Part shown: piece by piece, positions 27,223 through 46,600 of the stretch | Position numbering within the stretch: position 1 is the stretch's first letter | How the letters are laid out: every line of letters begins with the position of its first letter | IMG/VR virus record: IMGVR_UViG_3300048088_000314 | Location: 1-64,000 of that record | Source: a virus | DNA length: 64,000 nucleotides | Direction: 5' to 3' (one strand) | Notes under the pieces: model-generated | Database searches by the model: none | Seen by the model: the letters and a program-made list of their open reading frames with translations, nothing else | Told to the model about the DNA's origin: nothing | Translations under genes and position numbers: made by a program

Positions 27223-28112
27223 TGCCCCTCCTCCCCGGTAAGGAAAATATCTCCCGAAACATCTCCGAGCTCACCCACCACGGGAGCCGCGAAAGGAGTC
27301 ACCGGCAAATCGTCGCCATCGCGCTCGCAAACGCCGATCGGCATCCGCACAAGGCCGGCGGAGGCGGGATCGGCTTCGCCGGCGGCGGGTTTGCGAAGCC
27401 GCCCGCCTTCCACCTGATGCCCCCGGTGCACGCCCTGGCGCCGGTGCCGAAGCCGGAATCGCCAAGCATGGGCACGCCGTCCTGGACGCGCTCGACGATG
27501 CGGATGGACAGCCCAGCCCACATGCGGTTCGCCCGGGGCGGGATCGGCGAGTACGTGGAGTTCGGTGGCCACGAGCACATGGCGGGCGGCGGCGATGATG
27601 GCGCGGTTGCCGGGCCGGTGATCCCAGATGAGGCGATGCACAGCGGGCTAATCGGCGGCGTCGGCGGCGGCCGTACCGATCGCACTCCGCTTTCAGTCCC
27701 CAGTGGTGCGCATGTTGTGCCGGCTGACGCGGTATCCGGACTTGGCCAGGGGGCAAGTCACAACGGAGCGGCGCTGTGGGCTGCGGCGATCCGTGGTGGC
27801 CCCTGGGGCGTTCCGGTTCCGGCGACACACGGCGGCCATGGCCCGCCCTCGGCGCCGCATGCAGCCGCCCAACAGACCCAGACGATGGCGGAGGGTGGCG
27901 AGGCGCGCACATCGATCCTTGCGGCAAGCGGCGAGGTCGTCGTGGCACCCGAGGATGTCGAAGCTATCGGAGAGAGGGCGATCCGCGATGGCAGAGCAAA
28001 ACGTGGCGAGAGTGCTGCGGATGTGGGCCATCGACTGATCGACGAAGCCATTGATCGCGTTCGAAAATTCAACATTTCGTGGCTTCGCGCCGCGCCGCCT
28101 CCAAAAAAATAG
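27219..28112 (+). CDS. putative internal virion protein with xxxGG motifs
   Basis: ISRNISEL..QIVAIAL N-terminus; GGRTD..HVVPADAVSGLGQG; FAGGG, FARGG, MAEGG. Confidence 0.7.
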   Translation: MMPLLPGKENISRNISELTHHGSRERSHRQIVAIALANADRHPHKAGGGGIGFAGGGFAKPPAFHLMPPVHALAPVPKPESPSMGTPSWTRSTMRMDSPAHMRFARGGIGEYVEFGGHEHMAGGGDDGAVAGPVIPDEAMHSGLIGGVGGGRTDRTPLSVPSGAHVVPADAVSGLGQGASHNGAALWAAAIRGGPWGVPVPATHGGHGPPSAPHAAAQQTQTMAEGGEARTSILAASGEVVVAPEDVEAIGERAIRDGRAKRGESAADVGHRLIDEAIDRVRKFNISWLRAAPPPKK

Positions 28113-28158
28113 AGACAATTCGCGCGACGATCGGGTACGGTCGCCGCCGTCACGGAAA

Positions 28159-28935
28159 GGCGGTCACGGTTCGGCTCGGTGGGGCGGGCTATGGCACGGT
28201 ATGCCTCGGTCCGGCCTGGCGGTCATGGCTGGGTTGTCAGGGGCCTGGCGAGCAGGGGCCGGGTGTGTTCTGGCGGTAGCGGCTAGGACCGGCATGGCCT
28301 GTCGAGGCGTGTCCTGTTGAGGCTTGGCGGTTGGGGCCTGGTCTGGTCTGGAACGATGAGCCGTGGCGAGGCTTGTTAGATCGGTCGTGGAACGGCGAGG
28401 TTGGCCGGCTCCGGATTGGTTAGTCGAGGCGGTAGCGGCAGGGCGCATTGCGGGAAGCCGAGGCTGGGCCGGTCAGGGTACGGCTGGGCGGGGCGTGTTA
28501 CGGCCCGGCGGTCGCGGAAAGCCGAGATTGGCAAGGCCGGGCAAGCCGGGGCGGTCATGGCAGGGACGGGGTCGGATCGGTTTGGCTGGGCAACGCGGTC
28601 ATGGCAAGGACCGGCCACGTCTGTCTTGGTCGGGCCAGGCATGGTGCGGCGGTCACGGTTAGCCCCGCATTGGCCAGTCCAGGCGGGGCAAGGCGGTCGT
28701 GGAGTGGCCAGGAGCGGCCAGCCCAGACTGGGTAAGGCCCGGCGAGGCGGTCTAGGTCCGGTTAGGCTTGGCTCGGTCGGGCGCGGCTCGGCGGGGCGGT
28801 CGGGGCGAGGCACGGCCCGGCGCGGTTAGGCTTGGCGGTTGCGGCTTGGGTTGGCGTGTTGAGGCGGGGCAACGCTCGGCATGTCGGTCGAGAAAAGGCG
28901 CGGCTAGGCGGGGCGTGGCACGGTATGCCGGTTGC
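28159..28935 (+). ncRNA. pentamer-periodic GG(Y)NN array 1 (about 16 units delimited by GGCGGT-N-NN); putative guide-RNA array
   Basis: Delimiters at 28159, 28218, 28272, 28326, 28380, 28428, 28468, 28507, 28550, 28594, 28648, 28692, 28746, 28795, 28834, 28883, each followed by 6-10 pentamers. Confidence 0.8.
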
Positions 28936-28938
28936 GTC

Positions 28939-28968
28939 TTGACGTGGTCGCCGCCGCCGCCGTAACCT
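28939..28968 (+). promoter_or_regulatory. sigma70-like promoter (TTGACG-18bp-TAACCT) for the RAMP-like gene
   Basis: Directly after array 1, upstream of 29093. Confidence 0.5.
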
Positions 28969-29092
28969 AATTTCGTTACTCGCGGCGGTCACCGCGTGGA
29001 CGCAACATCAGAGAGCTTCCCGCCTCGGTGTTGCTTTGCAACCCCTGAACCATGCGTCCCGGGCGTGACCGGCCGGGGCGGGGAGACCACTT

Positions 29093-29965
29093 GTGAAATC
29101 GAAGAAAACTGAAGCAGTAGAAGTCGAACTTCTTGAAATCCGGCAAGCGTCGGCTGTGTTCTGTATCGTCGGAGTTTCTCCGTTGATTTACAACGCGGTG
29201 AGCCAGAAGGCCCAGCGCGAATTGTTGATGCCATCGGGCCGAAAGAACGCCGCGGCGCGGGCAAGCTCCCTGAAGCACGACCCGATCACTGAATATCAAA
29301 ACTCGATCTACCGCGCCCACGAGGATGATGCGCCGACGCGGATGGTTTTCCCGGCAGTGGCCTTCAAGAAGGCGCTGGCTACTGCTGCCCTGGACATCCC
29401 AGGGGCGACGAAAGCGGCGGTGGGCCGGCTCTCCTGGGTCACCGGCGACAAGACGCCGATCTACGGTGTCCCGCAAATTCTCCTGAGTGTCGTGAGGTCG
29501 GCCGATATGAACCGGACGCCGGACATTCGAACGCGGGCGATCCTGCCGCGGTGGGCCTGCGCGATCCGGATCAATTTCGTCCAACCCCAGTTGTCGGAGC
29601 GCAATGTCGTGCATCTGCTCGCGGCGGCCGGGGTCCTGTGCGGGATCGGCGATTTTCGTCAGGAGAAGGGCGCGGGGTCTTACGGTCAGTTCCGCATTGC
29701 GGATGGGCCTGACGATCCCGAGTTCGTCGAGATCGTCCAGAGCGGCGGTCGCGAGGCGCAGGATGCGGCGCTCGCAAACCCCGAGACCTACGACAACGAG
29801 ACGGCGTCACTGTACGCCTGGGTCACCGAGGAGATCGCCAAGCGCCGCGAGGCTGGCGTGGAGGCGTCGCGCCACGCTCCGGAAGGCGAGGACGACGTCC
29901 CCCAGGTCGGGACGTTGCTGAAGCCGCGTCGCGGGCGCAAGGCCAACGGCGAGGCGCACGCCTAA
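29093..29965 (+). CDS. Cas7/RAMP-superfamily-like RNA-binding protein (stand-alone, phage-encoded)
   Basis: N-terminal strand IVGVSPLI, FPAVAFKKAL helix motif, C-terminal glycine-rich loop GIGDFRQEKGAGSYGQF. Confidence 0.75.
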   Translation: MKSKKTEAVEVELLEIRQASAVFCIVGVSPLIYNAVSQKAQRELLMPSGRKNAAARASSLKHDPITEYQNSIYRAHEDDAPTRMVFPAVAFKKALATAALDIPGATKAAVGRLSWVTGDKTPIYGVPQILLSVVRSADMNRTPDIRTRAILPRWACAIRINFVQPQLSERNVVHLLAAAGVLCGIGDFRQEKGAGSYGQFRIADGPDDPEFVEIVQSGGREAQDAALANPETYDNETASLYAWVTEEIAKRREAGVEASRHAPEGEDDVPQVGTLLKPRRGRKANGEAHA

Positions 29966-29975
29966 CGCAACAGGG

Positions 29976-30005
29976 AAGGGGCGCGGCTGCGGTCGCGCTC
30001 CCTTT
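29976..30005 (+). terminator. terminator/attenuator-like hairpin between RAMP gene and partner
   Basis: GGGGCGCGGC-TGCG-GTCGCGCTCC followed by CTTT. Confidence 0.5.
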
Positions 30006-30022
30006 CTGACAAGGAGGAACAG

Positions 30023-30496
30023 ATGTTCATCAGCGACGAAGTCAAAAATTCGGTTTTGGCCCTGGCCGATCGCAACGGTGGCATTGTCCAGCCCGAGCAA
30101 CTGGTCGAGGCAGCGGCCGATCCGAGCCATCCTGCGAATGGCTGCTTCGAATGGGACGATGCGAAAGCCGCTGCTCGCGACCGGCTCACGACCGCGCGCA
30201 TCATTATCCGGAGCATTCGGCTGGTGGTCGACGTGGTCGAATTGACGGGACCGAGGCGGGTGCCGGCGTTCGCGGTCAATCAGAGCGGCAGCGGATATGC
30301 CACGTTGGATTCCCTCCGCAGCGATCCCGATGCGGCGCGGGCGGCGGCCGTTTACGAGTTCCAGCGCGCGGCGGCGGCACTGCGTCGAGCTCGGCAGATC
30401 GGGGTGGAACTGGGTCTGGGGCCGGCAGTCGACGCCACGGTGGCGCGGCTGGTCGGCGATGTCGAATCAGCGACGCAGGTTTACGCTGCGCGCTGA
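30023..30496 (+). CDS. small alpha-helical partner of the RAMP-like protein
   Basis: AAGGAGG RBS; PEQLVEAA.DP.HP...FEWDD.KAA...R...AR.II motif. Confidence 0.75.
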   Translation: MFISDEVKNSVLALADRNGGIVQPEQLVEAAADPSHPANGCFEWDDAKAAARDRLTTARIIIRSIRLVVDVVELTGPRRVPAFAVNQSGSGYATLDSLRSDPDAARAAAVYEFQRAAAALRRARQIGVELGLGPAVDATVARLVGDVESATQVYAAR

Positions 30497-30502
30497 CGTC
30501 AA

Positions 30503-30974
30503 GGAATGGAACGGCGGTTCGGGCTAGGATCGTCTAGGACAGGTCTGGTCAGATTCGGCTTGGCGGTCGCGGATGGACAGGGTAAGGCCAGCCTTGGCTC
30601 GATGTGTCACGGTAGGGCGGGGTAAGGCGGTCGGGGCGAGGCACGGCCCGGCGCGGGTAGGCTTGGCCGGGCGGTCGGGGCGGGGTCTGGGCAGGTGTGG
30701 CTAGGCTTGGCGGTCGAGGCGGTGCGTGGAGTGGCTGGGCGCGTAAGGCAACCTCCGGCGGTCGAGGCTTGGATGCCGTGGCGTGGTGAGCTCGGGCGGT
30801 CGAGGAATGGCCGGGGGTGGCATGGCGTGGTGAGGTTGGGCGGTCCGGGCTAGGCGGTCAAGGCTAGGTGCGGCCCGGTGAGCATGGGCGTGGCCGGGCG
30901 GTCATGGCTGGGTGCGGCCGGGCAACACATGGTGGGGCGGGGCCGGACAAGGCATGGCGGTCGCGGATTGGCCG
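30503..30974 (+). ncRNA. pentamer-periodic GG(Y)NN array 2 (about 10 units); putative guide-RNA array
   Basis: Delimiters at 30513, 30562, 30626, 30670, 30709, 30757, 30795, 30839, 30853, 30897, 30956. Confidence 0.8.
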
Positions 30975-31020
30975 TCATGCTTTCTCCCACGTGGAGAGGG
31001 ACGGTAATGTTGTGACGGAG

Positions 31021-31867: not shown

Positions 31868-34800
31868 ATGAGCTCCCAAGGCGCAACAACCACGACGTCG
31901 AGCGCACCGCCTCCGCAGGTGATGCAGAACTACACCCAGTTGACGGGTGCTGCCACCGGGGTCGCGCAACAGCCGCTCAATCTTTACACGGCGCCCGTCG
32001 TTGCGGGCTTTACACCGCAGCAGCAGCAGGCGTTCCAGGATGTTCAGAACGCCTCGGGTATCCAGACGCCCTACATCAACGCTGCGGCGCAGGAGTACGC
32101 GACCGCGACGACGCCGCTGTGGCCGACGCTGCCGACCTTCGGGACCGGGTCGGTCAACACGTACCTGAACCCGTACACGACCGACGTCACCAACCAGCTT
32201 ACGAACCTCTACGACCAGCAGAATGCCCAGGCTGCGGCGCAGCTTGCCGGGCAGTCGACGACGGCGGGCGCTTACGGTGGCGACCGCGAGGCGGTGGCGC
32301 AGGGGATTCAAACCCAGCAAGAGCAGATGGCGCAGGCGCCGACGCTCGCGCAGGTCCAGCAGCAGGGCTACCAGCAGGCGGTCAATGAGTTCAACAACCA
32401 GCAGGCGACGCAGCTTGCCGCCGAGCAGGCCAATTCATGGCTGGCGTCGCAAGCGGGCTTTGGCCTGGCGGGGCTGGGCTCTCAGGCCCAGAGCGCCGCG
32501 CTGCAGGGTGCCAGTGCCGAGATGCAGGCAGGGGCGGCTCAGCAGGCTCTGGCCCAGCAGCAGTTGAATGTCCCCTACCAGCAGTACCAGCAAACCCAGG
32601 CCTACCCATACCAGCAGCTTTCGTTCCTGACGCCGATCGTCGAGGGGACGGGATCGCTATCGGGCGGCACGGGGAGCACGACGCAGCCGCCGCCGAGCAT
32701 GCTGGGGCAGGTAGCCGGCGCCGCGACCGCTGGGGCCGGCCTTATCAACGCCTTCCCCTCCTCGCCGTCCTATCCTCCGGTGGACTATGCCACCAATCCG
32801 ACTGGCGGATTTGCCCGCGGTGGCCGCCTCGGCTTTGCCGATGGCGGCGGGATCGGTAGTGGCGGGCTCAATCTTCCGGGCAGCCCTAGCGGGGGGATCG
32901 GCACCCTCAACTTCCCGGACCTCAGCATCTCGTTCATCCCCCCTCCCCCGACGTCAGCGGGCGGCAAGTCGATGTTCAACCCAACGCAGCCCGATGTCAC
33001 GACCACCACGAGCGGCGGCGGGGGCGGGATTCTCGGTGCCGTTGGGCCGCTGCTCACCATCGCGAAATTCGTCGTTCCCCTCATCGGTGCGAAGGACGGG
33101 GGAGCTATGCGCGAGCATCGTGCGGCCGGCGGAACGGGTGGGATTGGCGACTATACGTCCCTGGCGACGCCAGCGCTCCCCGTGCCGACGCTTGAGCTTC
33201 CCTGGCTGAAGATGATGCAGCATCAGCAAGGTTCCCACATGGGGGCGGGCCCACCGAAGGCTCCCACGCCGGGAGCGGCACCCGACCCGATGAAGGGGGT
33301 CCAGGATCTCGGCGGCGCGGTCGGCAGTCTCGGAAAGCTGTTCAATAGCGACAGCACCGGCGGAGATTATGGTGGCGGGGGCGACAGCACTACCACGGGG
33401 AAGTCAGGCGGTGGCGCGATCGGTCGGGCCCATTACCAGACAGGGGGGCCGGGGCCGACCAGCGTTCCGACCTCGGTGATGGCGCAGTTCGGCGGAGCGC
33501 CGCCGAACGTCCAGAGCCAGTTGCAGCAGCTTCTCCAGTTGCCTCTGGCGCAGTTGCAGGAAATGGCGGTGCAGTATCCGCCGACGACCTCTCAGGGCCA
33601 GATGATCGCCCAGGCTATCGCGCAGAAGCAGGCGACGCCGGGATCCGGGACGGCGCCCCAGACACCCGCGCCGCAGCAGCCGTTTGTTGGCCTTGGTGGT
33701 TCGGGTGGATCGACTGGGGGCACGGCATCTCTGGCGACCTCGCCGGAGAGCTATGGCGGGACTTCGCATTTGGCCAGCGGTGGGCAAGCCGAAGCGGCCG
33801 ACACCCGCGGTTACGTGACGCCCGAGGAGCTCGATCCGCGGCCGGTGGTCGATCACTCCGGAAGCACGGTCAAGGTCAATTACCCCTCGGAAGGGAAGTC
33901 GCTCGATTTGGGATTGCCACCGATCAGGCCAGAGCGCCGCGCTGCGGGGGGATCCGCCGGCGCGGCCATGCCGGTGGTGCCGCATGTCAGCCTTTCTGGT
34001 GGCGAATGGGCTCCCGTGCCGACGTCTGATGCGTCGGCGCCAGCACATTTGCCGATCACTGGGCCAGCGAACAATGCACCGCTCGGGGGGACGCAACAAG
34101 CAGGGGAGAACAACACGTCTCCGGCCGCGTTTTTTACGAGCAGCATGCCGACCGCTAACGGTGTTGCCATCCCGCAATTGTCGAATCAGATGTTCGGGCC
34201 GGTCCAGGGTGTTACGCCGGGATCAGGCCTGCCGGGCTGGTACGCGCCGCTACCGCAGCAGACCGTGTTTGGCACGGGCCCTGGCGGCTCGACCATCTTC
34301 CCGACGTCAACCGCCTTCACCCCGGCCATGGCGCCGATCACGTCAGTCTATGGTGGTTCCGTCCCGACCTGGGCAGGTGGTTCGAGCGCTCCTGCGCCGG
34401 CGACTGGCGGGACGATGACCCAGGATCAGATCGACCAGATGAATGCCGCCACCACTGCGGCGAACTACGCGCAGGCGGCATCCGGCTACAAGCGCGGCGG
34501 TCGTTTTGGGGAGGGCGGCGGCATCGGCGGCTCACGCCCTTTCCGCGGACATTTCGATGAGGGCGGCGATCTAAATCCTGGCGATGAACTGCCAATCCCG
34601 AGCGCGCCCGTCGACGCCGGCTATGTAGATGCCGGGGTTGCCGGCTCGGGTGCCGGGCCTGGCACTCTGGATCTTCTGCAAGAGCGCGAGGCGGAGGATC
34701 GGGTGAGGGCGGACCGTGCCCTGGCGAAGATTACCGCGTCGGCAGAAGGTAAGGGCGGCATCGGCAAGAGTGTTACGGGGCATCCGATGCTGATGCGAGA

Positions 34801-37672
34801 GCCATCCGCGCCATTGGCGCCGGCGCCGGTTTTCCCGGATACGGGCGGCTCAGGCACCATGGATATCCTGCAGGCGCATCAGGCTGTCTCAGATGCGCTC
34901 GACCAGGCGGGGCCTCGGAAACACGCTGTCGAGGCACCCGGGATCCCGCCGACTATTCCACCGGCGGTCAGTCCGGATACGGCGATAATGCTGCAGGCGC
35001 ACGACGACGAAGGCAACGCGATCGACACCACGCCCGAACCGACTCCGCGCGGAGTCGAACCGCCGACACCAGAACTGCGCGCAACCCCAACCTCACCGCG
35101 TAATGAACAGGTATCGCAGGCGACCCAGGACGTTCTCCGGGAGCACGGCGAGATGCCGAGCGAGCCGTTCTATGGACGCGCCATCCCGTTCAGCCAGTTG
35201 CCCGAGCGCGGCGGTGGACCGCCAGTCCAGTACGGCATGCCGAGCGAAGGGCGCGGCGGAATTGGCATGCCGAGCGAGGCTGCCGTTCCGGTCACTCCTA
35301 CGGGAATCAAGGGCGGAATCGGCACCGACTATGTCGAGCCGCCACCGCCGGATTGGACCCAGCCGGAGTATTGGACCCGGCAGCGCTACGAGCAGTGGAA
35401 CCCGGCGACTCAGCCGGTGCCGTCCGCGCCCGCCGCTCCAACGCCGATGCCGCAGAGGCCTGTCGTCGCTACAGAAGGCCCGATGCCGCAGAGACAGGTC
35501 ACCCCGCCTGCTACCGCAGAAGCGCCGGCAGCAGCGCCCGAAGCGCCAGCGGTCACGACGCCGACGACGGTATCGGCGGCGACCAAGCCAGACCTGTTCG
35601 CGCCAGCGCCGACAACGGCGGCTGCGCCAGCGACGGCTCCCGCCGCAGCGCCGGAGGTCTGGGGCGACTCACTTGGAGTCGGCGTCCACAACGTCCTCAA
35701 GAGCCCAGGCGGCTACCAGCATGGCGGCGACGATCCAAAGACGGTTTTCGGCGAGATCAGGAAGCAGCCAGAAAACCATTGGCAGGGCAAGGACGTGATC
35801 CTGTCGAGCGGCACCAACGGCAACGACATGCCGACCGTCCTCGAGACGATGAATTATCTCAAGGGACACGGCGCCAACGTCGCGGTCATTGGCTATGGTT
35901 CGAAGTACGCCGACAGGGACGCGCAGCTTCAGCAGTACGCCAAGGATGCCGGCGTTGCCTATGTCAAGGCGGGAGTCAATGACGGCACCCACATGAGCCC
36001 GGGTGGCTATGCGGACGCCACGGCGCGGGCCCAGCAGGCGCTCGCGACTTCTCGGGCTCCGAGAGCCATGGCTGATGGCGATGTCTATGCGTCCGATCCC
36101 AAGTCGCCGAACTCTGGCGCGGTCATCCCGAGCACCCCGACGCCAGCCGCGCCGGATGCGCGCAAATCTGCCGCGCAAACGAACGCGAAAACCGCTATCG
36201 ACACAATGGCGGGGCTCGGCGGCAGCAAGGTATTCCAGGCCGCAGGCCTTACCCATGCCATGTACGAGGGCGGGTTCGCTGACAATTGGGTGTTGAGCGG
36301 TATCCCCGGCGAGGACAGTCGCGGTCATTTGCAATTCAACGCGAACGGGCAGCGTCCGCTTTACGAGCGATGGCTGGCGGCTAACGGGAAACCTGTGGAT
36401 TCGCACAGCACGGCTGATCAGTTCGCCTACATGACCCAGTGGGTGAAGACGCATCATCCGGAGGCGTTGACGACCAATGATCCGCGGGTGGCGATGGATG
36501 CCATCGGCGATTTCGAGCACTATACGGGATACGCGCCGGGCCAGGGCCAGCGGATGGGGAATTACCCAATCGCGGAGAAGATGGTCAACGGCGATCTCAG
36601 CGTGACCCCGAGCGGGCCGATCGGCGGCACCCGCGGTGGTGGAGGCGCCGGTGGTGGCGCCGCGGGCGCAGGAACGGGGGCGAACCCCAACGCCCCTCCC
36701 GCAACGCCGGAGAACGTCAGCAACGCCGCCCGGCAACTCTCCGCCCAGGCTCCGCCGCACGAGCGCAACGCCCTTTACACGTGGCTGCACAGCCCCGGCG
36801 GGATGCTGTTTATGATCGGCGCCGGCATGCTCGCCTCCGGATCGCCGTACCCCGGCGTCGCGCTGGGCCAGGGTCTCGAGTTCGCGGCCAAGGGGCTGAT
36901 GACGGGCGAGGCCCAGGAGAACAAGAACGAGCTCGCCGAGATCCGCGCCGAGCACTACCGCGAGATGGCGGATGCAGCCGCGGGTAAGCTGGGCCTGACC
37001 CAGCAACTCGGCGAGGGCCGGCTGGCGAACCAGCAGACGCAACTCCAGTTGACCGCTGAGCGTCTGGCCAATTCGCAGCAGGTCGCGCAGAACAACATCC
37101 TCATCGCGACCCAGAAACTCGACTTGGCCAAGAGCGCGGAGGAGCGTCGACTGGCCGAGGGACAGCGCCGCGATGCGATCAAGATGATGATCGGCCTCCA
37201 GCCGAAGGGTGAGATGGCGATCCTCCAGGCAGTGATGGATCAGCCGAATGGACCCAAGACGATCCCCGAGGCTGAGGCGGCGATTGCCGCGGCGAAGCGT
37301 GATCCTTCCAAGGCACAGGGGGTCCAGGTCGCGATCGAGGCCGAGGCGCGCAAGCGAGCCTCCCTCGATCTGCAGGCGCACAATGCCGACCCGACCAACA
37401 TCGGGCGCACCTTCGATACCCAGGCCGCGACCAAGCAGCACCTGGACGAGCTCCGGGCGACATTGGGGGCGACTGCGGCGCCCGCGGCACCCGCTCCGGC
37501 CGCTCCCGCTGCAGCGCCGCAAGGGGCGCCCGCAGCGCAAGGTGCAAAGCCCGATTGGGCAGTCCCCGTCCTGGGCGATCAGCATTACCTGGATGGCAAG
37601 CCGATATTCACTGACGGAAGGGCGTGGTATTTCGGCGATCACACGCCGGCGGGAGCCGCCGCAACCCAGTAA
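31868..37672 (+). CDS. large internal virion/ejection protein with SGNH-hydrolase and lysozyme-like domains
   Basis: Q-rich N-terminus with GAYGGDR; WGDSL/GTN/DGTH; AAGL..YEGG..GHLQF..DQFAYM. Confidence 0.75.
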   Translation: MSSQGATTTTSSAPPPQVMQNYTQLTGAATGVAQQPLNLYTAPVVAGFTPQQQQAFQDVQNASGIQTPYINAAAQEYATATTPLWPTLPTFGTGSVNTYLNPYTTDVTNQLTNLYDQQNAQAAAQLAGQSTTAGAYGGDREAVAQGIQTQQEQMAQAPTLAQVQQQGYQQAVNEFNNQQATQLAAEQANSWLASQAGFGLAGLGSQAQSAALQGASAEMQAGAAQQALAQQQLNVPYQQYQQTQAYPYQQLSFLTPIVEGTGSLSGGTGSTTQPPPSMLGQVAGAATAGAGLINAFPSSPSYPPVDYATNPTGGFARGGRLGFADGGGIGSGGLNLPGSPSGGIGTLNFPDLSISFIPPPPTSAGGKSMFNPTQPDVTTTTSGGGGGILGAVGPLLTIAKFVVPLIGAKDGGAMREHRAAGGTGGIGDYTSLATPALPVPTLELPWLKMMQHQQGSHMGAGPPKAPTPGAAPDPMKGVQDLGGAVGSLGKLFNSDSTGGDYGGGGDSTTTGKSGGGAIGRAHYQTGGPGPTSVPTSVMAQFGGAPPNVQSQLQQLLQLPLAQLQEMAVQYPPTTSQGQMIAQAIAQKQATPGSGTAPQTPAPQQPFVGLGGSGGSTGGTASLATSPESYGGTSHLASGGQAEAADTRGYVTPEELDPRPVVDHSGSTVKVNYPSEGKSLDLGLPPIRPERRAAGGSAGAAMPVVPHVSLSGGEWAPVPTSDASAPAHLPITGPANNAPLGGTQQAGENNTSPAAFFTSSMPTANGVAIPQLSNQMFGPVQGVTPGSGLPGWYAPLPQQTVFGTGPGGSTIFPTSTAFTPAMAPITSVYGGSVPTWAGGSSAPAPATGGTMTQDQIDQMNAATTAANYAQAASGYKRGGRFGEGGGIGGSRPFRGHFDEGGDLNPGDELPIPSAPVDAGYVDAGVAGSGAGPGTLDLLQEREAEDRVRADRALAKITASAEGKGGIGKSVTGHPMLMREPSAPLAPAPVFPDTGGSGTMDILQAHQAVSDALDQAGPRKHAVEAPGIPPTIPPAVSPDTAIMLQAHDDEGNAIDTTPEPTPRGVEPPTPELRATPTSPRNEQVSQATQDVLREHGEMPSEPFYGRAIPFSQLPERGGGPPVQYGMPSEGRGGIGMPSEAAVPVTPTGIKGGIGTDYVEPPPPDWTQPEYWTRQRYEQWNPATQPVPSAPAAPTPMPQRPVVATEGPMPQRQVTPPATAEAPAAAPEAPAVTTPTTVSAATKPDLFAPAPTTAAAPATAPAAAPEVWGDSLGVGVHNVLKSPGGYQHGGDDPKTVFGEIRKQPENHWQGKDVILSSGTNGNDMPTVLETMNYLKGHGANVAVIGYGSKYADRDAQLQQYAKDAGVAYVKAGVNDGTHMSPGGYADATARAQQALATSRAPRAMADGDVYASDPKSPNSGAVIPSTPTPAAPDARKSAAQTNAKTAIDTMAGLGGSKVFQAAGLTHAMYEGGFADNWVLSGIPGEDSRGHLQFNANGQRPLYERWLAANGKPVDSHSTADQFAYMTQWVKTHHPEALTTNDPRVAMDAIGDFEHYTGYAPGQGQRMGNYPIAEKMVNGDLSVTPSGPIGGTRGGGGAGGGAAGAGTGANPNAPPATPENVSNAARQLSAQAPPHERNALYTWLHSPGGMLFMIGAGMLASGSPYPGVALGQGLEFAAKGLMTGEAQENKNELAEIRAEHYREMADAAAGKLGLTQQLGEGRLANQQTQLQLTAERLANSQQVAQNNILIATQKLDLAKSAEERRLAEGQRRDAIKMMIGLQPKGEMAILQAVMDQPNGPKTIPEAEAAIAAAKRDPSKAQGVQVAIEAEARKRASLDLQAHNADPTNIGRTFDTQAATKQHLDELRATLGATAAPAAPAPAAPAAAPQGAPAAQGAKPDWAVPVLGDQHYLDGKPIFTDGRAWYFGDHTPAGAAATQ

Positions 37673-37686
37673 TCAAAGGTTAGAGT

Positions 37687-40600
37687 ATGCTGCGTGACGG
37701 AGGCAGACCGGGGTTTGCGGAAGGTGGCGACTCTGGCGACCAAGTCATCCCGTCTGACTTGCCGCCTCCGCCGCCCGGCGCGACCACAGAGCCGCCGCAG
37801 GAACTGCCGCCGCTTCCAGCCGGCGCGACGCTTACGCCGCCTCCGCCGCCACCAGGCGCGACGACCACGCCGCCGTCACTCTTTGCCAAAGATAAACCCC
37901 TGGTTCCCAAAACCCAGGACGACATCAGAACCTCGGCGCCGGGATCTTGGATCAAGGATCCTCTAACGGGGGCGCTTTATCAAAAGCCTGTTCCTGCGCC
38001 TGCCGAAAAAGCGCCAGCACCAAAGCTGGATTTCCGCGGTCTTACCCCCGAGCCAACGCCAAGTGTCATGGGCGCGGCGGGGCGCGGTTTTGAGCGGGGT
38101 GTTGGCCCCGCCGCTGGTGGATTCGTCGGTGCTGGCGCACTCGGAGAGGCGGGTGCCATTGGAGGCGCAGCCGTTGCCGGACCTCCCGGCGCTTTGGTTG
38201 GTGGCATAGCTGGGGCGCTTACGGGCGCTCTGGGTGGCGGCTACGCTGTTGGCGCCGCCCAGAATTGGTTACTCAAACAATTGCCGGACAGCGTTCAGCG
38301 ATGGCTCGGGCAAAGCGATGAGCAGCAGGCGGCTGATGTCGAGGCACATGGTATCCCGGCAGAATTGGGCGAGTTTCTCCCAAACTTGATCGCCGCGCCA
38401 CCACGTCTCGCTGCCGCGGCCATTCGTGAAGGGGCCGGAGCAGTCGAGCGATTGCTGACGAGTCGATTTGGTGCGCCAGTGACGGGTGCCGCGATCATGG
38501 GCGGCCAAAGTGTGGCACAACAGGAACTCGCGAAAGGCGAAATCAGTCCAAAGGAAACAGCGATTGCGGCAGGCGAAGGCCTGTTGATGGGGCACCCGAG
38601 CCCGATTGGTGAGCGACTTCTGAGTGCGGGCGCGAGGCCGGTTCGAGCAATCACCGGGAGAGGAGAGCCGACACCGGGCGGAGAGGGCGGTGGTGCCGGT
38701 CAGGAAGGTGGCGCACCGCCTCCCGCTCTCGGCGAGGTCATGGGCATCCCCATGGGCGACAACAACGTGCAGCGCATGACGGTTTCCCGGGTCACCCCGG
38801 AAGGCGATGTGGTGCTTGTCGACCAAGCGGGGCTGGCTCATCCTATGACGGCGGCGGATGTAGCCCGCCTGCGCACCGAGCCACCTCCCGAGGAAGCCGC
38901 GCCGAGTGCCGAGACGCCACCGCCCCCAGGGACGCCGCCAGCAGGCGAAGCGCCCCCCCCCGAAGGTGAGACTCGCCCGCCGCCAGCGGGTGCCGCGGGC
39001 GTAACGCCCAGCTTCGACATCTTCCCACCGGACGAACTGCCGCCAGCACCGCCGGGGGCGACAAGAGAACCCCCGCCCGCTGAACCGCCGCCGGCAGCCG
39101 CGCCAGCCGCTCAAGTAGCCGCCGCAGATCAGGCCGCTGCTGCGGAGCGCGCAGCGACCGCCGCACAGGCACCGGCGCAGCCCGGCGAACTCGACCAGCG
39201 CATCGCCGCGGATCAGGCCGACGTTGCCGCGGCGCAGGCCGGCGCTGCGGAGCCGGCACCTGCTGCTGCTCCAGCCGCAGCCCCGGCGCTACCGGACGGC
39301 TATCGGATCGAGCCCTTCGAGGGCGCCACCGTTACCGGCAACCCGGTAACGCGCTACCGCTTGATCGGGCCGTCTGGGAACATGATGGCCGAGGGCGGCA
39401 ATCTCACGGAATTGGCCGCTCATGCCCGGCGGGTAGCGGCGATCCGCGCCGCGCCGACTCCGCGCGGAGTCGAGCCGGCTCCCGAGCAAGCGCCACCCGC
39501 TCCCGAGCCAGCGGCGGCACCAGAAGCCCGCCCAGCGCAGGAAGCGCCGCCGCCCCCTGTTGCGGCACCCGAGCCGGTTGAGGCCGCTCCCGCGCCCCCA
39601 GAGCCGGCCGCCGCTACACCGGAAGCGGAGAATGGCGGCTACAAAGTTGTATCCCGGAATAATGGCATTCGAGAGTTCTGGTGGATACAGCGACCGGATG
39701 GTTCGCTTGTCGGGCCAGGAAGATCAGGAACGGCAGTCGAGACCCGCGAAGAAGCCGAATGGGCTCTGCCCTACTATGTTGAGGCTGGCAAGTTGATTGC
39801 TGCCAAGACTTCGCCGCCAGAGCCTGTCGCGCCAGCCGCCGCCGAGCCAGCCAACACGCCAGTCGTCACCCAGGAGAAGCACACCAAGACCGGCGCTGAC
39901 CTGTGGTTCGTCCGCTTCCCCGAGAAGACGACGGGGCTGGGGCCGCTGGCGCGCTCGCTCAAGGGGTATTGGTCGGCCTTCCGCGGCGGCGGCATGCAGC
40001 CGGGCTGGGCCTTCAAGAGCCTTGAAGCTGCCAACGAGTTCGCTACCCGGGCACGGTTGCCTGGCGAAAAGCCGACGCCAATCCCGGAGGGCGCAGCACC
40101 ACCGGCGGTAGAGACGACGCCAGAGTCATCGCCGGCTCAGCCCGAAGCCGCGACACCGCCGGCCGCTCTGGCCTATGTTTCGACGCTACGTGATCCCGCG
40201 CGGCGCGAGTACGCGACGCAATACCTCCGGTATCTCCTGGGACGCCGCGACGAACCGGATACCGATCTCTCGCCGATGGCGCAGCAGGGCATCAGGCTGC
40301 GTCTCGATGAGTTGGCTGGAAGCCGCGCCGGGCCGGCAGGTGAGCCGATGCCGCCGAGCGGCGAGCGCCCCGCTGCGCCGCCATCACCGTTCGACGCTTG
40401 GGCCGACGAGGTTTTCAAGGTTTACCAAGAGCAGGGGTCGGAAGCCGCAAACACCCTCTTTGATACGATCGCCACGCGCGAGAATCTGTCGGTGGAGCAA
40501 TGGTCCCAGATTTCTCAGCAGGTGCGCGACCGCGTCGAGGCGGCCAGCCTCCCGTGGGGAAAGGGAGTGAATTACGTCCCGCCAGAGCGGCCTGTTGAAA

Positions 40601-43600
40601 CGCCGGCCGGTCCACGGCCTGTCGAGGATGCAGCGGCTACGGAGCGCCGCAACTTCGTAGACGCTCTGAATTTGACGAACAGCGTCGAAAGAAACGGTGC
40701 CCGCTACTCGATTGAGAACCAGGATGGACGATTCCGCGGGGTCGTCGGCGGAGAGGGGCTAACCCCGGCATACATCGGGGAGTGGACTCCGAACCGAGGC
40801 AGCGCAATACAGGCGGCGCGAGATTATGCTTTCAGGGCAGAAACGCCGGAGCCACCGCGCGCCGAACCTATCGCCGAGACGCGCGCAGAGGCGGAACGTG
40901 CAGAGCCAGCCCCGCGGGAAGAGCCGGCCGCGCCGCGCGCCGAGGCCAAGCCTGCCGTTACGCCCGCCGCCGGCACCCCCATGTGGGCGCACATCGGAAA
41001 GAATTATCTCGACCGCGACCTCTACCGCGACAAGAACGGCGTGCGGTCCTACGTCGATGACAACGGTATCCGCCACACCGAGCCGGTCCAGATCATCCCG
41101 ACCCGTGGCGGCATGCGCTACAGCACCGCGGAGCCGCTCAACAAGGATCCGGAGTGGCAGGTCGCCCAGCCGCGCGACGCTTACGAGGACGAGCACGGCC
41201 TCCCGATCGAGAAGGAATACTACCGGAAGGAGCCGGAGAACCTGGAACAGAGGATCGCGCGGCAGCTTGAGAACGCCCGCGAGGTCACCGAAGCCAACCC
41301 GACAAGAGCAGAGATCGAGGCCGGCAACTACCCGAAGGGCCGGGTCAACTTCTACGGTATTCCCTTCGTCATGGAGAACGCACGCGGTGCGCTGCGTGAA
41401 GGTATCGACGAACATGGCGAGCCATGGGAATCCCAATTGGCTGCCGATTATGGCTACATCTCGCGCACCGTTGGGGCGGAGGGCACCGATAACGTCGATG
41501 CGTTCATCGGCCCTGACCTGGGGAGCCAACAGGCCTTTGTGATCGACCAGTTCGACCCGGACGACGGGTTTGACGAACACAAGGTGATGCTCGGCTACAA
41601 GGACTGGCCGGCGGCGCGCGACGCCTATCTCGATTCGTTCTCCGATGGCCGCGGTGGCGAACGCCTCGGCAACTACACGCCGATGTCGCTCGACCAACTC
41701 AAGGCATGGCTGGACACCGGCGACACCCGCAACCCGATCGGCCAACAGGCCTTGCCGCTTGGACGAGAGGAGCCGACCCGTGGAGTTCAAAACGCCGTAC
41801 CTCCTGGCGATGAGGGAGAGAGACCCGCAACTGTTCAACGCCCTGCGGAGGAACGGGGAAATGAACCGGCACCTGCAGCAGAAGAGCGAGCAGGCGCACC
41901 AACTCCTCGAGGAGATCTTGAAGCACGATCCGAAGCCATCCTTGCCGAAGATGAGGGAGGCGGAGGAGATCGTGCTGGCGACGCTGATCGAGTTCCCGGC
42001 GGACAACGAGAGGGAGCCGAGCCAGGAGCCGCCGCAGGACCTGCCGACACATCCGGGGCAATTCGGCCGCCGACGCGGGAGATAGACCTCGAGCCGGGCA
42101 AGGAGGTTGGCGTTCCGTCTCAGGCGGGGCGCGTGGTGGATTGGGAGGTCAAGGGCACCAACTTCCCGCTGACCGCCGAGGCTATCTCCGAGAACCGCTC
42201 ACCGCTTGCCAAGGCGCGCGACAACCTTGCCGCGATCGAACTGGCGAAGCGCCTCGTCGCCGAGAAACGCCCGGCGACCCGCGCAGAACAGGCGCTGCTC
42301 GCCCGCTATGTCGGCTGGGGTGGAGTCTCCGGTGCGTTCAAGGACAGGGCTGGCAATTTCCGCAAAGGGTTCGAGGATGTTGGCCAGCGCTTAGCGCAGG
42401 TGCTGACCAAGCCGGAATACGACGCCGCGGCGCAGTCAACGCTGTATGCCCACTACACTAGCGAGCCAGTCATTAAGGCCATGTGGTCGGCGATGCAGCG
42501 TATGGGGTTCAAGGGCGGGAGCGTGTTCGAGCCGGGCATGGGCATCGGCCACTTCCTCGGGTTCATGCCGCCCGACATAGCGCAGACGTCACGGTATCAC
42601 GGGCTCGAGATCGACCCGATGACCGCGACGATCGCCAAGCTGCTCTACCCGGAGTCGGGCATTAGGCAAGCTGACTTCAAGAGCACGCCCTATCCCGAGA
42701 ATGTGTTTGATATCGCGATCGGCAATCCGCCGTTCCACGATGTCGTCGTCCAGAGCGACCCCAAGTATCGTGCGCGCGGCTTTGTGCTGCACGACTACTT
42801 CTTTGCCAAGAGCCTCGACAGCGTGCGCCCCGGTGGGTTGCTGGGCTTCATCACCAGCGCCGGCACGATGAACAAGCTCGACACCAAGGCGCGGAAATAT
42901 CTCGCCGACCGGGCGGAGTTCGTCGGCGGGGTGCGCATGCCGTCGTCGACTTTCGCGCGCTCAGCCAATACCGAAGTCACCACCGACATCTTGTTCTTCA
43001 AGAAGCGGGGGCAGATCCTCGACCATGCCGAGAACGAGTTGCCCGAATGGACCCAGACGGTGCAGCGCGACCTGCCGAACCGCGCCGGCGAGATTATGGG
43101 GGCGAACGTCAATCGCTATTTCAGCGAGCATCCCGAACAGGTCCTCGGTGAAGAGGGGATGTTCGACAAGCTGGTTGCCGGCGAGCGCTATGCGGTGCGA
43201 CCGACCCCGGGGATGGACGTTCCTGCCGCGCTGAATGAGGCATTGGCGCGGCTCCCTGAGAACATAATGACCGAGGCCCCGTCGCCGAAGGAACTCGCCG
43301 AACTCGATTTCTCCCGCGACGAGCGTAAGGACGGCAGCTTCTACGAAGCGCCGGACGGCACGCTGATGCAGTATCGCGACGGCGCTGGCCGCCCGGTGGC
43401 ACGGCGCGGCGCCGGTGTCGAGGGTGGCCGGACCTCCGCTGAGATGAAACTGATCCGGGAGCTTGTCCCGATCCGTGACGCGATGCGGGCGGTCTATCGT
43501 GCCGATCTGGGGGGCGGCGAGGAAGCCATCGCCGCGCGCACCGAGTTTAACCGGGTCTACGACGAGTTCGTTTCCCGCCGCGGCCCGCTCAACAAGACCG

Positions 43601-46600
43601 AGTATTCCTACCGTAGACCGACCCCGGCACAGCTTGAGAATCTGCGCTCCGAGGCTCGCGAGGACGCGCGTGACCTGGGTCGCGAGTTTGACGAGGGCGA
43701 TTTCGACGCCCGGCCGCTTATCGAAAAAAAGGCCTCGGCAGCGGCCATCGCGTCAGCCCGCCAGGAAGCGCGCAACCGTGCCGCAGCCGAGGGGCGTGAG
43801 TTCAACGAAGGGACGTTCGACCCGGCGGATGTTCCCGACATCACCATCCCCAAGAAGGAAAACCTCGACGCTTTCAGCCAGGACCCCGAGCACCATCGCC
43901 TTGCGGCGATCGAGCAATACGACGACCGCACTGGCGTCGCGACGAAGCGCACGATCTTCTTCGAGAACCCGCTCGACGTCCGGCCCGAGCCGCAAGTCAA
44001 TTCGGCCAACGACGGTGTGCTGTGGTCCCTCAACCAGCATGGCAAACTTGACCTCGACCAGATCGCCGAGAAGCTGGGAAAGTCGCGCGATGACGTGATC
44101 AAGGAACTGGGTGACAGCGTCTATCGGGTTCCCGGCACCGACGAAACCTACCAGACCGCCGACGAATATCTGTCGGGCGACGTGGTCTCAAAGCTGGAAG
44201 AGGCCCGCGCAGCGCTCGAGAGCGATCCGAAGGTACAGCGCAACGTCGAAGCGTTGGAGAAGGTCCAGCCCGCGCCGATCTCGCCTGCGGACATTTCGAT
44301 CCGCCTTGGTATGCCGTGGATGGGGACCAAGGAAGTCGGCGACTTCATGCGCGAAGGGCTCAACCTGGGGGGCGGCGCAGAGGCACGCTATCTGCCGGCG
44401 CTGGGTCGTTGGATCGTCGGCCTGGGCGGTGATTATGGCGATGGCCGCGCGGAATGGTCGACCCTGCGCATGAACGCAGAGGACCTCCTTACCCACGCCC
44501 TCAATCGCACGGCACCGAAGGTATTTGACCCCGGGGAAAAGAAGGGCTCCCGAGTTCTCAACGAGGACGCCACCCAGGCAGCGCAGGATAAAGTCCAGGC
44601 GATGCACGAGGCGTTCGAGCGCTACGTCTACGGCAATGGCAGTCCCGAACAGATCGAGCGGCTCGACCGCATCGCCGCGCTCTATAACGACCGCCACAAC
44701 CGCGAAGTCATGCGGCAGTGGAATGGCGACTACCTGACGACGCCGGGTATCGCCAAGGGCTGGTCATGGCGCCCCCATCAGCTTCGCGCTATCGCCCGTA
44801 TCATCCAGAGCGGAAACACGTACATCGCGCACGCGGTCGGCGCCGGCAAAACGTCGGTCGCGATCGGCGCGGCGATGGAGATGCGCCGGCTGGGGCTCGT
44901 CCGCAAGCCGATGATCGTGGTCCCGAACCACATGCTCGGCCAATTCGCCAAGGAGTGGTACGAGCAGTACCCCACGGCCCGTCTGATGATCGCCGACGAG
45001 CAGCGGTTCCACACCGACCGCCGGCGCCAGTTCGTCGCCGACGTGGCGCAGCAAGACCTCGACGGGGTGGTGATCACCAACTCCGCCTTTAAGAAGCTGG
45101 CTGTCTCCAAGGAGTACGAGGCCAAGCTGATCCAGGACGAGATCGCCCAACTCGACGAGGCGATGGAAGGGCTGGGGCAGGATCCAACCAAACTCACGAG
45201 TGTCAGCGCCGGAGCGCGCGACAACATGAGCACGGTCAAAAAGCTCCAATCCAAAAAACTGAAAATGGAGGAGCGGCTCCGAGGCGCCACCGCGACCGAC
45301 GTTGATCAGACGCACACCTTCGAGGAACTCGGCGTCGATTTCATGTTCGTTGACGAGGCGCATCAGTTCCGCAAACTGGCCTTCGCCTCGCAGATGTCCG
45401 TGAAGGGAATCTCGCAGGAAGGCTCGGACATGGCGTGGGACCTCTACGCCAAGACCCGTTACCTCGACGAGCAGAACCCGGGCCGCTCCCTGGTGATGAT
45501 GTCGGGCACGCCGGTCACCAACACGATCGGCGAACTCTACTCTCTCAGCCGCTACATGCAGCGCGCGGAATTGGAGAAGCAGGGCATCCCGTCCTTTGAT
45601 GCCTGGGCTCAAACCTATGGCCGCGAAGCGACCGAACTCGAGCAGACGGCACAGGGCACCTATGAGCCGGTGACCCGGTTCTCCAAGATCGTCAACGCCC
45701 CCGAGCTCTATAAGATGGTCGGGCAGGTGATGGACGTGGTGACGCCGAACGAACTATCGCAATACGTCATCCGCCCCGCACTGGATAACGGCCAGCGCAC
45801 GACGCATCTGGCCGAGCGCTCGATGTGGCTCGACAACTTCCAGGAAGAACTCGGGGATCGCGTGCGGGCGATTCGCAGCCGGAAGGGTCCGCCGTCGAAG
45901 GGCGACGATATCCTGTTGTCGGTCATCAACGATGGGCGCCTGGGGGCGATCGACCCGCGGTTCATCGATCCGTCCTACGGGACGGGGAATGCGCCGTCGA
46001 ACACGCCGAGCAAGCTGGACACGATGATCGACAATGTTCATCGCATCTGGCGCGATACAGCGAACCAGCCCTTCTACGAACCCGGCACCGGCAAGGAGTT
46101 GTTCCGCGGGCCGGCAACCCAACTGGTGTTCTCGAATCTCGGTATCCAGGGCCGCGATGGCGGGTTCTCCGGCTATCAGCACATGAGGCGGGAGTTGATC
46201 CGTCGCGGCGTGCCCGCGAGCGAGATTTCCTTCGTCAAGGACTTCGATGGCAAACCCTCGGAGAAGCAGCGGCTATTCAACGACATGAATGCGGGCAAGA
46301 CCCGTATCCTGATCGGTTCGACCCAGAAGATGGGCACCGGCCTCAACGTGCAGCGCCGACTGGTGGCGGTGCACAATCTTGACCCGCTGTGGTTCCCGGC
46401 GGACGACGAGCAGCGGGTCGGCCGCATCCTGCGCCAGGGCAATCTCAACCCGACGATCCAGGTGCACGACTACTCGACTAAGGGCACCTACGACTCCACC
46501 ATGTGGGGGATGATGGGCCGCAAAGGGCGGTTCATCGAGCAGTTCTTCCGCGGGGATCCTAACCTCCGAGAGATCGAGGACCTGGGCGAGGCCAGCGTCT

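What the first reader, a model, noticed from the sequence alone, without database searches (positions are those of the whole stretch)
28594..30708. Variable dinucleotides decode as codons with the wobble base skipped and spell mobile-element enzyme motifs
Seen: unit 28594-28647 gives NN = AT AA CC CA CT TT CG CA AT GC; read as NN+n codons this is [IM][NK]P[HQ]L[FL]R[HQ][IM]A, i.e. INPHLFRHIA, the catalytic HxxR box of tyrosine recombinases. Unit 30670-30708 gives GG GG CT CA GT TA TT = GGLHVYF, the His motif of AEP primase-polymerases. Unit 28507 (one 4-nt pentamer) gives AKELNRKG, resembling the IA..LN..G motif of large serine recombinases. Other units also read protein-like (GETPAYLR, EKAYGVTI, AFFVDGNSI, AWRNHFSVTRGK). 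Inference: guides recognise gapped NN-x-NN-x targets in coding DNA, making them insensitive to synonymous escape and aimed at conserved integrase and replication genes of competing phages, satellites or plasmids. Caveat: I resolved ambiguous residues by eye, which inflates apparent matches.
Basis: partly seen in the sequence, partly recalled or inferred. Interest (0 to 1): 0.93.

Follow-up and report, generated by a model that had tools for sequence, protein, structure and literature searches.

The report
Phage VIPR guide arrays, codon-skipping code

Summary
Two non-coding arrays (28159-28940 and 30513-30975) are built of GGY-NN pentamers. They are cut into units of 5n+4 nt at GGCG|GTC and flank a Cas7/RAMP-fold gene and a small partner gene.

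This is a VIPR system (Vipr protein, vap gene, vrRNA arrays; bioRxiv 10.64898/2026.04.26.720920, .720927 and 10.64898/2026.10.15.759431). Those preprints show experimentally that the NN dinucleotides read double-stranded DNA while skipping one base, mostly the codon wobble base. The system silences rival mobile elements, including a satellite's recombinase.

Tests here:
- Unit 28594 matches 10/10 NN, in codon phase, in box II (INPHLFRHIA) of tyrosine recombinases in two alphaproteobacterial genomes.
- Unit 30670 matches 7/7 NN on the GGLHVYF motif of Prim-Pol/AEP primases in many viral contigs.
- The phage has neither gene and no self-target.
- The serine-recombinase reading was not tested.
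- The other "protein-like" readings carry no weight: a control 7-NN unit hit about 15 unrelated proteins.

This is a new member of a known kind, with "staggered" arrays and a non-type-II vap. The scan has already logged VIPR in at least 16 other genomes.

The parts
28159..28940 (+). Upstream vrRNA array (array A). It holds about 15 units of GGY-NN pentamers, each starting GGCG|GTC, with unit lengths of 39-79 nt.
   Evidence: 5-nt periodicity. Unit parsing and pentamer profile. No Rfam family. No fold beyond shuffles.
28594..28647 (+). vrRNA unit with 10 NN (AT AA CC CA CT TT CG CA AT GC). Its predicted target is box II (INPHLFRHIA) of a tyrosine recombinase subfamily.
   Evidence: It matches 10/10 NN, in phase, in L081 and L083. 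At the same site, 8 of 19 homologous copies in the family of G001 have at least 8/10 NN.
28507..28549 (+).
   Evidence: Sequence only. The target claim was not tested.
28795..28833 (+). Unit shared with array B (GG GA AC CC GC TA TT).
   Evidence: The pattern gives 111 viral hits scattered over unrelated proteins, so no target can be assigned.
29093..29965 (+). vipr gene, 290 aa. It encodes a single-RRM RAMP/Cas7-like protein with a thumb hairpin (SADMNRTPD) and a G-loop (GIGDFRQEKG).
   Evidence: AF2 model with pLDDT 81.6. The Foldseek top 45 hits are all Cas7-family. VIA Z 9.3 to Csm3/Cmr4. HHalign to SUSP1 Vipr at 96% probability, E 4.9e-9. More than 2,598 homologues, none named.
30023..30496 (+). 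vap-like accessory gene, 157 aa, helical, with no known fold match.
   Evidence: It sits next to vipr in 63 of 80 loci. Model pLDDT 84. No informative structural match. Not similar to SUSP1 vap1.
30513..30975 (+). Downstream vrRNA array (array B), about 10 units.
30626..30669 (+). Second copy of the shared unit.
30670..30708 (+). vrRNA unit with 7 NN (GG GG CT CA GT TA TT). Its predicted target is the GGLHVYF motif of Prim-Pol/AEP primases.
   Evidence: More than 114 viral hits. Of the 80 read, 25 read GGLHVY[FL] in phase, and 23 of those lie in primase-like ORFs. Pfam Prim-Pol, AEP-TOTE or AEP-like on representatives.

Best explanation
The region is a VIPR (Viral Interference Programmable Repeat) locus in an uncultured phage of about 91 kb and 64.5% GC. 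It comprises a vipr gene (29093-29965), a vap-type accessory gene (30023-30496) and two vrRNA arrays on the same strand.

By homology with the characterised SUSP1 system, the arrays are transcribed and cut into guides of 7-15 GGY-NN repeats. Here the arrays are 'staggered': neighbouring guides share one base at GGCG|GTC. Vipr protomers polymerise along each guide. They bury every GGY and present every NN. The filament then binds double-stranded DNA in which successive NN are separated by one skipped base. It forms an R-loop triplex and blocks transcription.

Because the skip falls on the wobble base, a guide reads codon positions 1-2 and tolerates synonymous variation.

Shown here:
- the anatomy of the arrays and units;
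- the RAMP fold and the homology to SUSP1 Vipr;
- conservation of the module in hundreds of phage contigs;
- exact codon-phased matches of two guides to a tyrosine-recombinase catalytic box and to the Prim-Pol His motif;
- absence of both target gene families, and of any self-target, in the phage.

Inferred from the preprints, not shown for this locus: transcription, processing, filament formation, the 1-nt skip in this clade, and silencing.
For: Anatomy:
- Periodicity is confined to the two arrays.
- GGYNN profile.
- 256 of 319 GGCGGT-to-GGCGGT distances are 4 mod 5, peaking at 49, 54, 44 and 59 nt. This fits the 1-nt-overlap 'staggered arrays' of the preprint.

Protein:
- Cas7/RAMP fold.
- HHalign to SUSP1 Vipr (KT454805.2, 28474-29061) at 96% probability, E 4.9e-9.

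Module:
- Arrays lie next to the gene in 78 of 80 viral loci and in 133 of 151 non-redundant loci.
- The partner gene is present in 63 of 80 loci.

Code and targets:
- Published 1-nt skip rule, wobble alignment, recombinase target and cryo-EM triplex.
- Unit 28594 matches 10/10 in phase in the recombinases of L081 and L083, which have GC 0.65, the same as the phage.
- That recombinase family is patchy (16 of 301 genomes), and 8 of 19 copies have at least 80% NN match at the same site.
- Unit 30670 lies on the Prim-Pol motif.
- The phage has no PF00589 or PF09250 gene and no self-hit at 80% NN or more.
- Independent case: the first guide of L064/L089 matches 9/9 in phase on the vipr thumb motif AD[IM]NKTPDI of other loci. 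Shuffles put the probability at about 5e-4.
Against:
- The 1-nt skip rule is experimentally shown only for type II (SUSP1). This clade has a different vap and no 3' tail.
- The 10-NN pattern has about 1 hit expected by chance in 596 Gb, and one of the 3 hits (L082) is such a hit.
- It has no hit in 2.9 million viral contigs.
- The 12-NN and 15-NN units have no exact hit there either.
- A 7-NN guide is short: a control 7-NN unit gives 111 hits, 40% in phase by codon composition alone.
- Across 10,303 NN, HxxRH-type strings are not enriched.
- NN composition fits a uniform model better than codon positions 1-2.
- On a 0.68-Mb local database there is no general gap-1 excess once low-complexity runs are controlled.
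Confidence: 0.85

Rival explanations
1. It is a VIPR locus, but the named motif readings (integrase box, primase motif) are coincidences and the true targets of these guides lie elsewhere.
For: - Chance expectation is about 1 hit for the 10-NN pattern in the genome collection, and 3 were found, one clearly random.
- 7-NN patterns hit more than 100 places.
- HxxRH strings are not enriched family-wide.
- No other window unit matches the integrase loci.
- The 10-NN pattern has no viral-contig hit.
Against: - Both integrase hits are in phase, in the catalytic box, in genomes with the phage's GC content. Homologues keep 8-9/10 NN at that site.
- About 29% of the primase-pattern hits that were read fall on one catalytic motif across at least 6 divergent subfamilies. 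The control unit shows no such family.
- A recombinase is the proven natural target in SUSP1.
Confidence: 0.2
2. The arrays are a sequence-periodic scaffold or sponge for a multimeric RNA-binding protein. This would resemble TRAP, which binds (G/U)AG triplets separated by 2-3 free bases. The NN would be neutral spacers that carry no targeting information.
For: - NN positions evolve fastest between homologous units (per-site mismatch 0.19 and 0.08 at positions 3 and 4, against 0.008 at the invariant G).
- NN composition is near uniform.
- The units are unstructured.
Against: - Published reprogramming experiments show that NN alone sets specificity in the homologous system.
- Whole-unit, codon-phased matches were found here.
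- In L064 versus L089, one unit keeps all 18 NN bases while 6 bases at pentamer positions 1-2 (the second G and the Y of GGY) changed.
Confidence: 0.04
3. The periodic G-rich tracts act at the DNA level, as G-quadruplex or R-loop-prone DNA, or as a packaging or partition site. They would be unrelated to the neighbouring gene.
For: Strong G over C strand bias and GG every 5 nt.
Against: - The arrays are strictly linked to the RAMP gene, on the same strand, across phages that otherwise share no neighbouring genes.
- vrRNAs of the homologous system are expressed and co-purify with Vipr.
Confidence: 0.01

Closest known systems
VIPR systems with 'staggered' vrRNA arrays (bioRxiv 10.64898/2026.04.26.720920, fig. 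S18 legend)
   Same: - Phage-borne vipr plus one accessory gene, flanked by GGY/NN arrays.
- Adjacent guides overlap by one base. Here that shows as GGCGGT spacing of 5n+4 nt in 80% of cases.
- There is no tail between guides.
   Different: The preprint's type assignment for this clade could not be checked, because no supplementary tables are held. This clade is very large in metagenomes (more than 2,598 homologues; arrays up to 2.5 kb in L018 and L021), and its boundary word GGCG|GTC is conserved across clades with 45-55% protein identity.
Type II VIPR of Escherichia phage SUSP1 (KT454805.2: vipr 28474-29061, vap1 28031-28471)
   Same: - RAMP protein with the G-loop GVGDWR..FGRF, aligned to GIGDFRQEKG..YGQF here (HHalign 96%).
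- GGY-NN guides both upstream and downstream of the two genes.
- By inference, the 1-nt skip code.
- A recombinase as a target class.
   Different: - SUSP1 Vipr is 195 aa; this one is 290 aa, with a helical C-terminal extension.
- SUSP1 guides are about 100 nt with a pseudoknotted 3' tail and GGT repeats. Here there is no tail, and the guides are 39-79 nt.
- The vap proteins are unrelated.
Cas7 backbone of class 1 CRISPR effectors (Csm3/Cmr4, type VII and type IV Cas7)
   Same: Same RRM/RAMP fold with thumb and G-loop (Z 9.3; Foldseek E 2e-5). One protomer binds per fixed number of guide nucleotides.
   Different: - The period is 5 nt, not 6.
- The fixed nucleotides are sequence-specific (GGY).
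- There are no CRISPR repeats.
- Neither locus protein matches a PADLOC or NCBIfam model, and no Cas5, Cas6, Cas10, Cas1 or Cas2 gene was seen beside them. The wider window was not screened for cas genes.
- The target is read discontinuously.

Membership tests
VIPR system | Vipr protein: a minimal RAMP with an RRM core, G-loop and thumb | tested here: met
   AF2 model with pLDDT 81.6. The Foldseek top 45 hits are all Cas7-family. VIA Z 9.3, rmsd 3.7 over 150 residues to Csm3, with ranks 1-38 nearly all RAMPs.
VIPR system | Sequence homology to a founding Vipr (SUSP1 ALH47069.1) | tested here: met
   HHalign of the 53-sequence profile against SUSP1 Vipr: probability 96%, E 4.9e-9, 51 columns covering the G-loop region only.
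VIPR system | vrRNA made of tandem GGY/NN (YNNGG) pentamers with conserved GGY and hypervariable NN | tested here: met
   Pentamer profiles. Units hold 7-15 repeats.
VIPR system | Minimal locus of vipr plus one vap gene flanked by long non-coding arrays, mostly on phages | tested here: met
   G000 is a virus record, 95% complete.
VIPR system | Targets follow the 1-nt skip rule, mostly in coding DNA with the skip on the wobble base | tested here: met
   Two window guides and one guide of L064/L089 match in phase. A general excess over shuffles could not be shown on the 0.68-Mb local database.
VIPR system | No self-target at 80% NN match or more | tested here: met
   The best own-genome match for the 18 units is 47-75%, within the shuffle range.
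VIPR system | Arrays are transcribed and processed, and co-purify with Vipr; the complex silences its targets | not testable with these tools
This feature is known only for SUSP1, P. fulva and a few other systems.
VIPR type II (SUSP1-like) | Each vrRNA ends in a conserved structured 3' tail; the accessory gene is vap1 | tested here: not met
   Units abut directly at GGCG|GTC with no tail. They fold no better than shuffles. The partner gene is unlike vap1.
CRISPR-Cas class 1 | CRISPR array of repeats 20 nt or longer with spacers, and effector genes (Cas5, Cas6, Cas8 or Cas10, Cas11) beside Cas7 | tested here: not met
   The only repeats are 5-nt periodic. The two locus proteins have no PADLOC or NCBIfam hit. 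Neighbouring genes are virion proteins or have no family hit.

The most novel reading that the evidence does not exclude
This GC-rich, tail-less, staggered-array clade may be a functionally distinct VIPR type. Its guides would be aimed at catalytic motifs shared by whole enzyme families, not at one rival element. The examples seen are tyrosine-recombinase box II, the Prim-Pol His motif and the Vipr thumb. That would make it a broad-spectrum 'anti-family' silencer. Its guides would be released by a processing step at GGCG|GTC that has not yet been described.
Probability: 0.25. Interest if true: 0.55.

Novelty: new member of a known kind. Interest (0 to 1): 0.35.

Why it matters
The case shows that the VIPR code can be read straight from a raw phage sequence.

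It extends the published picture from enterobacterial phages to a very large clade of GC-rich environmental phages. That clade has thousands of homologues and arrays of up to about 45 guides.

It also gives concrete, testable target predictions. One is a recombinase catalytic box in mobile elements of Rhodobacter-like Alphaproteobacteria. The other is the Prim-Pol catalytic motif.

Finally, it hints at the phage's host range. It does not add a new principle.

Tried and rejected
- Early ideas dropped once the RAMP fold and the literature were in hand: a TRAP-like scaffold, G-quadruplex or R-loop DNA, and packaging, partition or Chi-like sites.
- I had judged a 3-nt target period geometrically implausible for a Cas7-type filament. 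The cryo-EM preprint shows this objection is wrong.
- Rfam: no family. Unit folding: z-scores near 0. Promoter and terminator scan: nothing informative.
- Phage-collection DNA search: no match. The protein search found only two Gordonia phages.
- Partner protein: no structural match. Complex prediction of Vipr with the partner gave no verdict.
- Exact gap-1 patterns for the 12-NN and 15-NN units, and for the flagship unit, gave 0 hits in viral contigs.
- The pentamer-coded vipr-motif unit occurs only in the L064/L089 lineage.
- A raw gap-1 k-mer excess (z 12-17) proved to be an artefact. Low-complexity NN runs were matching period-3 coding repeats, and reversed strings gave the same excess.
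- The codon-composition test and the HxxRH enrichment test were negative. In hindsight they are weak tests, because targets lie on both strands and in unknown genes.
- The shared unit 28795/30626 has no assignable target.
Full report
**What is there.** The window is the first 64 kb of a 90.8-kb virus record (GC 0.645, 95% complete). Only two stretches of the whole genome show 5-nt periodicity: 28150-28950 and 30425-30975. Both are non-coding and G-rich on the + strand. They are built of pentamers with G at position 5 (92-97%), G at position 1 (about 60%), a pyrimidine at position 2 (72-83%) and nearly free positions 3-4. Written in the other register, this is GGY-NN. The arrays are cut into units that begin GGCGGTC, with lengths of 39, 44, 49, 54, 59 and 64 nt.

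**Context.** The arrays flank two genes on the same strand: 29093-29965 (290 aa) and 30023-30496 (157 aa). Neither has a Pfam, NCBIfam or PADLOC match. Each matches a PHROG of unknown function. The 290-aa protein folds with confidence (pLDDT 81.6). Its structural neighbours are almost exclusively Cas7-family RAMPs: the Foldseek top 45 all belong to that family (E from 2e-5), and VIA gives Z 9.3 to Csm3 and Cmr4. The partner protein is helical and has no informative match.

**Conservation.** Relatives of the 290-aa protein are encoded on 323 viral contigs and more than 547 metagenome contigs. More than 2,598 protein clusters exist, none of them named. In 78 of the first 80 loci, and in 133 of 151 non-redundant loci, G-rich 5-nt-periodic arrays lie beside the gene on the same strand. 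Some reach 2.5 kb. The small partner is adjacent in 63 of 80 loci, while the other neighbours are not shared. Over 10,303 pentamers the same GGYNN profile holds. Of 319 distances between successive GGCGGT words, 256 are 4 mod 5. The units fold no better than shuffles, and no Rfam family matches.

**Identification.**
- A literature search found bioRxiv 10.64898/2026.04.26.720920. It describes VIPR systems: a phage-encoded ancestral RAMP (Vipr), an accessory gene (vap), and vrRNAs of 9-16 YNNGG repeats with constant GGY and hypervariable NN.
- That work shows that targets follow a "1 nt skip rule", using pangenome searches, competitive binding and GFP repression. Most natural targets are coding sequences with the skipped base on the wobble position, on either strand. 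Changing NN alone reprograms the system. Natural targets are satellites, prophages and other VIPR systems.
- A companion paper gives the cryo-EM mechanism. Vipr protomers sequester each GGY and present NN. Every third DNA base is skipped, and an R-loop triplex forms.
- A third paper shows that the SUSP1 system silences a satellite's excision recombinase. It also shows that codon-periodic reading prevents mutational escape, and that some guides target rivals' vipr genes.
- The preprint further describes "staggered" arrays whose guides overlap by one base. This explains the 5n+4 spacing seen here.

**Direct membership test.**
- I fetched phage SUSP1 (KT454805.2). Its two-gene locus at 28031-29061 is flanked by GGTNN repeats with tails.
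- The profile of the window's protein family aligns to SUSP1 Vipr with 96% probability (E 4.9e-9) over the G-loop region.
- The accessory proteins are unrelated, and there is no 3' tail here. The locus is therefore VIPR but not type II.

**Testing the decoding claim.**
- *Unit 28594.*
  - The 20-base gapped pattern has no hit in viral contigs and 3 hits in 596 Gb of genomes, where about 1 is expected by chance.
  - One hit is antisense to an FtsH-like gene and is noise.
  - The other two are in codon phase in tyrosine recombinases (Pfam PF00589) of an uncultured alphaproteobacterium and a Rhodobacter sp. They read ...INPHLFRHIAAK...LLGH...Y, which is catalytic box II.
  - Those loci have GC 0.65, like the phage.
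  - The recombinase occurs in 16 of 301 genomes of that family. At the same site, 8 of 19 copies keep at least 8/10 NN, and one keeps 9/10.
- *Unit 30670.*
  - Of the 80 hits read, 25 read GGLHVY[FL] in phase. Of those, 23 are in primase-like ORFs from at least six divergent subfamilies.
  - Pfam on eight representatives gave Prim-Pol four times, plus AEP-TOTE, AEP-like, DUF927 and one terminase.
- *Control.* The shared unit 28795/30626, also 7 NN, gives 111 hits, 45 of them in phase, spread over about 15 unrelated proteins with no common family. The high in-phase share therefore reflects codon composition, and a "protein-like" reading on its own means nothing.
- *Self-targets.* The phage has no tyrosine recombinase, no Prim-Pol gene, and no own-genome match at 80% NN or more.

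**An independent case.**
- While testing the rule on the related loci, I found that the first guide after vipr in L064, and also in L089, reads GC GA AT AA AA AC CC GA AT.
- This matches 9/9, in phase and in sense, the family's most conserved motif, AD[IM]NKTPDI. In the model this motif lies in the thumb hairpin.
- The 9/9 match holds in vipr genes of other loci. L064's own gene matches 8/9.
- Shuffles give a probability of about 5e-4.
- Between L064 and L089 the unit keeps all 18 NN bases, while 6 bases at pentamer positions 1-2 differ.
- The unit is confined to that lineage.
- It parallels the published vipr-targeting guides.

**Negative or weak tests.**
- NN composition fits a uniform model better than codon positions 1-2.
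- HxxRH strings are not enriched across 10,303 NN.
- The 12-NN and 15-NN units have no exact viral hit.
- No other window guide matches the recombinase loci.
- A large raw gap-1 excess on the 0.68-Mb local database vanished under reversed-string and complexity controls.
- None of these contradicts the rule. The local database simply lacks the targets, and published targets lie on both strands.
- Between homologous units, NN evolve fastest. This fits guide turnover as well as neutrality.

**Verdict.**
- This is a new member, probably of the staggered-array kind.
- It comes with two credible target predictions and one untested one.
- Expression, processing and the skip length in this clade remain inferred.
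- The scan's own index lists VIPR loci in at least 16 other genomes, with the same verdict.

Noticed in passing
L064:1217-1261 and L089 (first unit after vipr, near 4750-4800): A guide whose 9 NN spell, in phase, the Vipr thumb motif AD[IM]NKTPDI of other phages' vipr genes. It matches 8/9 on its own gene, which is above the 80% self-target threshold used in the preprint. NN are fully conserved between the two phages, while pentamer positions 1-2 drift.
   Followed up: yes
L018:5376-7925 and L021:4901-7425: Arrays of about 2.5 kb, roughly 45 guides, downstream of vipr-vap. These are much longer than the arrays described for SUSP1.
   Followed up: no
L056, L060, L064, L084, L085 (for example L064:1390-1430): A fully conserved, non-pentameric element (…TTTGGTCAAAGCTAGGCTGCTCGTGGCGGTC) sits inside otherwise fast-evolving arrays. 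It may be a promoter, a processing signal or a tail-like signal.
   Followed up: no
L083:197-5256 (- strand): The targeted 417-aa recombinase lies in tandem with a second tyrosine recombinase (302 aa). It overlaps a 924-aa ORF that has no Pfam match. This looks like a multi-recombinase mobile element.
   Followed up: partly
window 28150-30975 and related loci: The NN are not uniform. Position 4 is G in 28-47% of pentamers, and TG and AG each make up about 9% of dinucleotides, about 3.5 times their share at codon positions 1-2.
   Followed up: partly
window 31868-37672 and 37687-51522: Two giant ORFs (1,934 and 4,611 aa) lie directly downstream of the VIPR locus, within the virion-gene region. 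The first has no Pfam match.
   Followed up: no
Gordonia phages ODay (MW534375.1, 10361-10969) and Pipp (MN234179.1, 32525-33061): Cultured actinophages encode relatives of the Vipr-like protein (30-32% identity, phrog_4652). They could serve as laboratory models for this clade.
   Followed up: no
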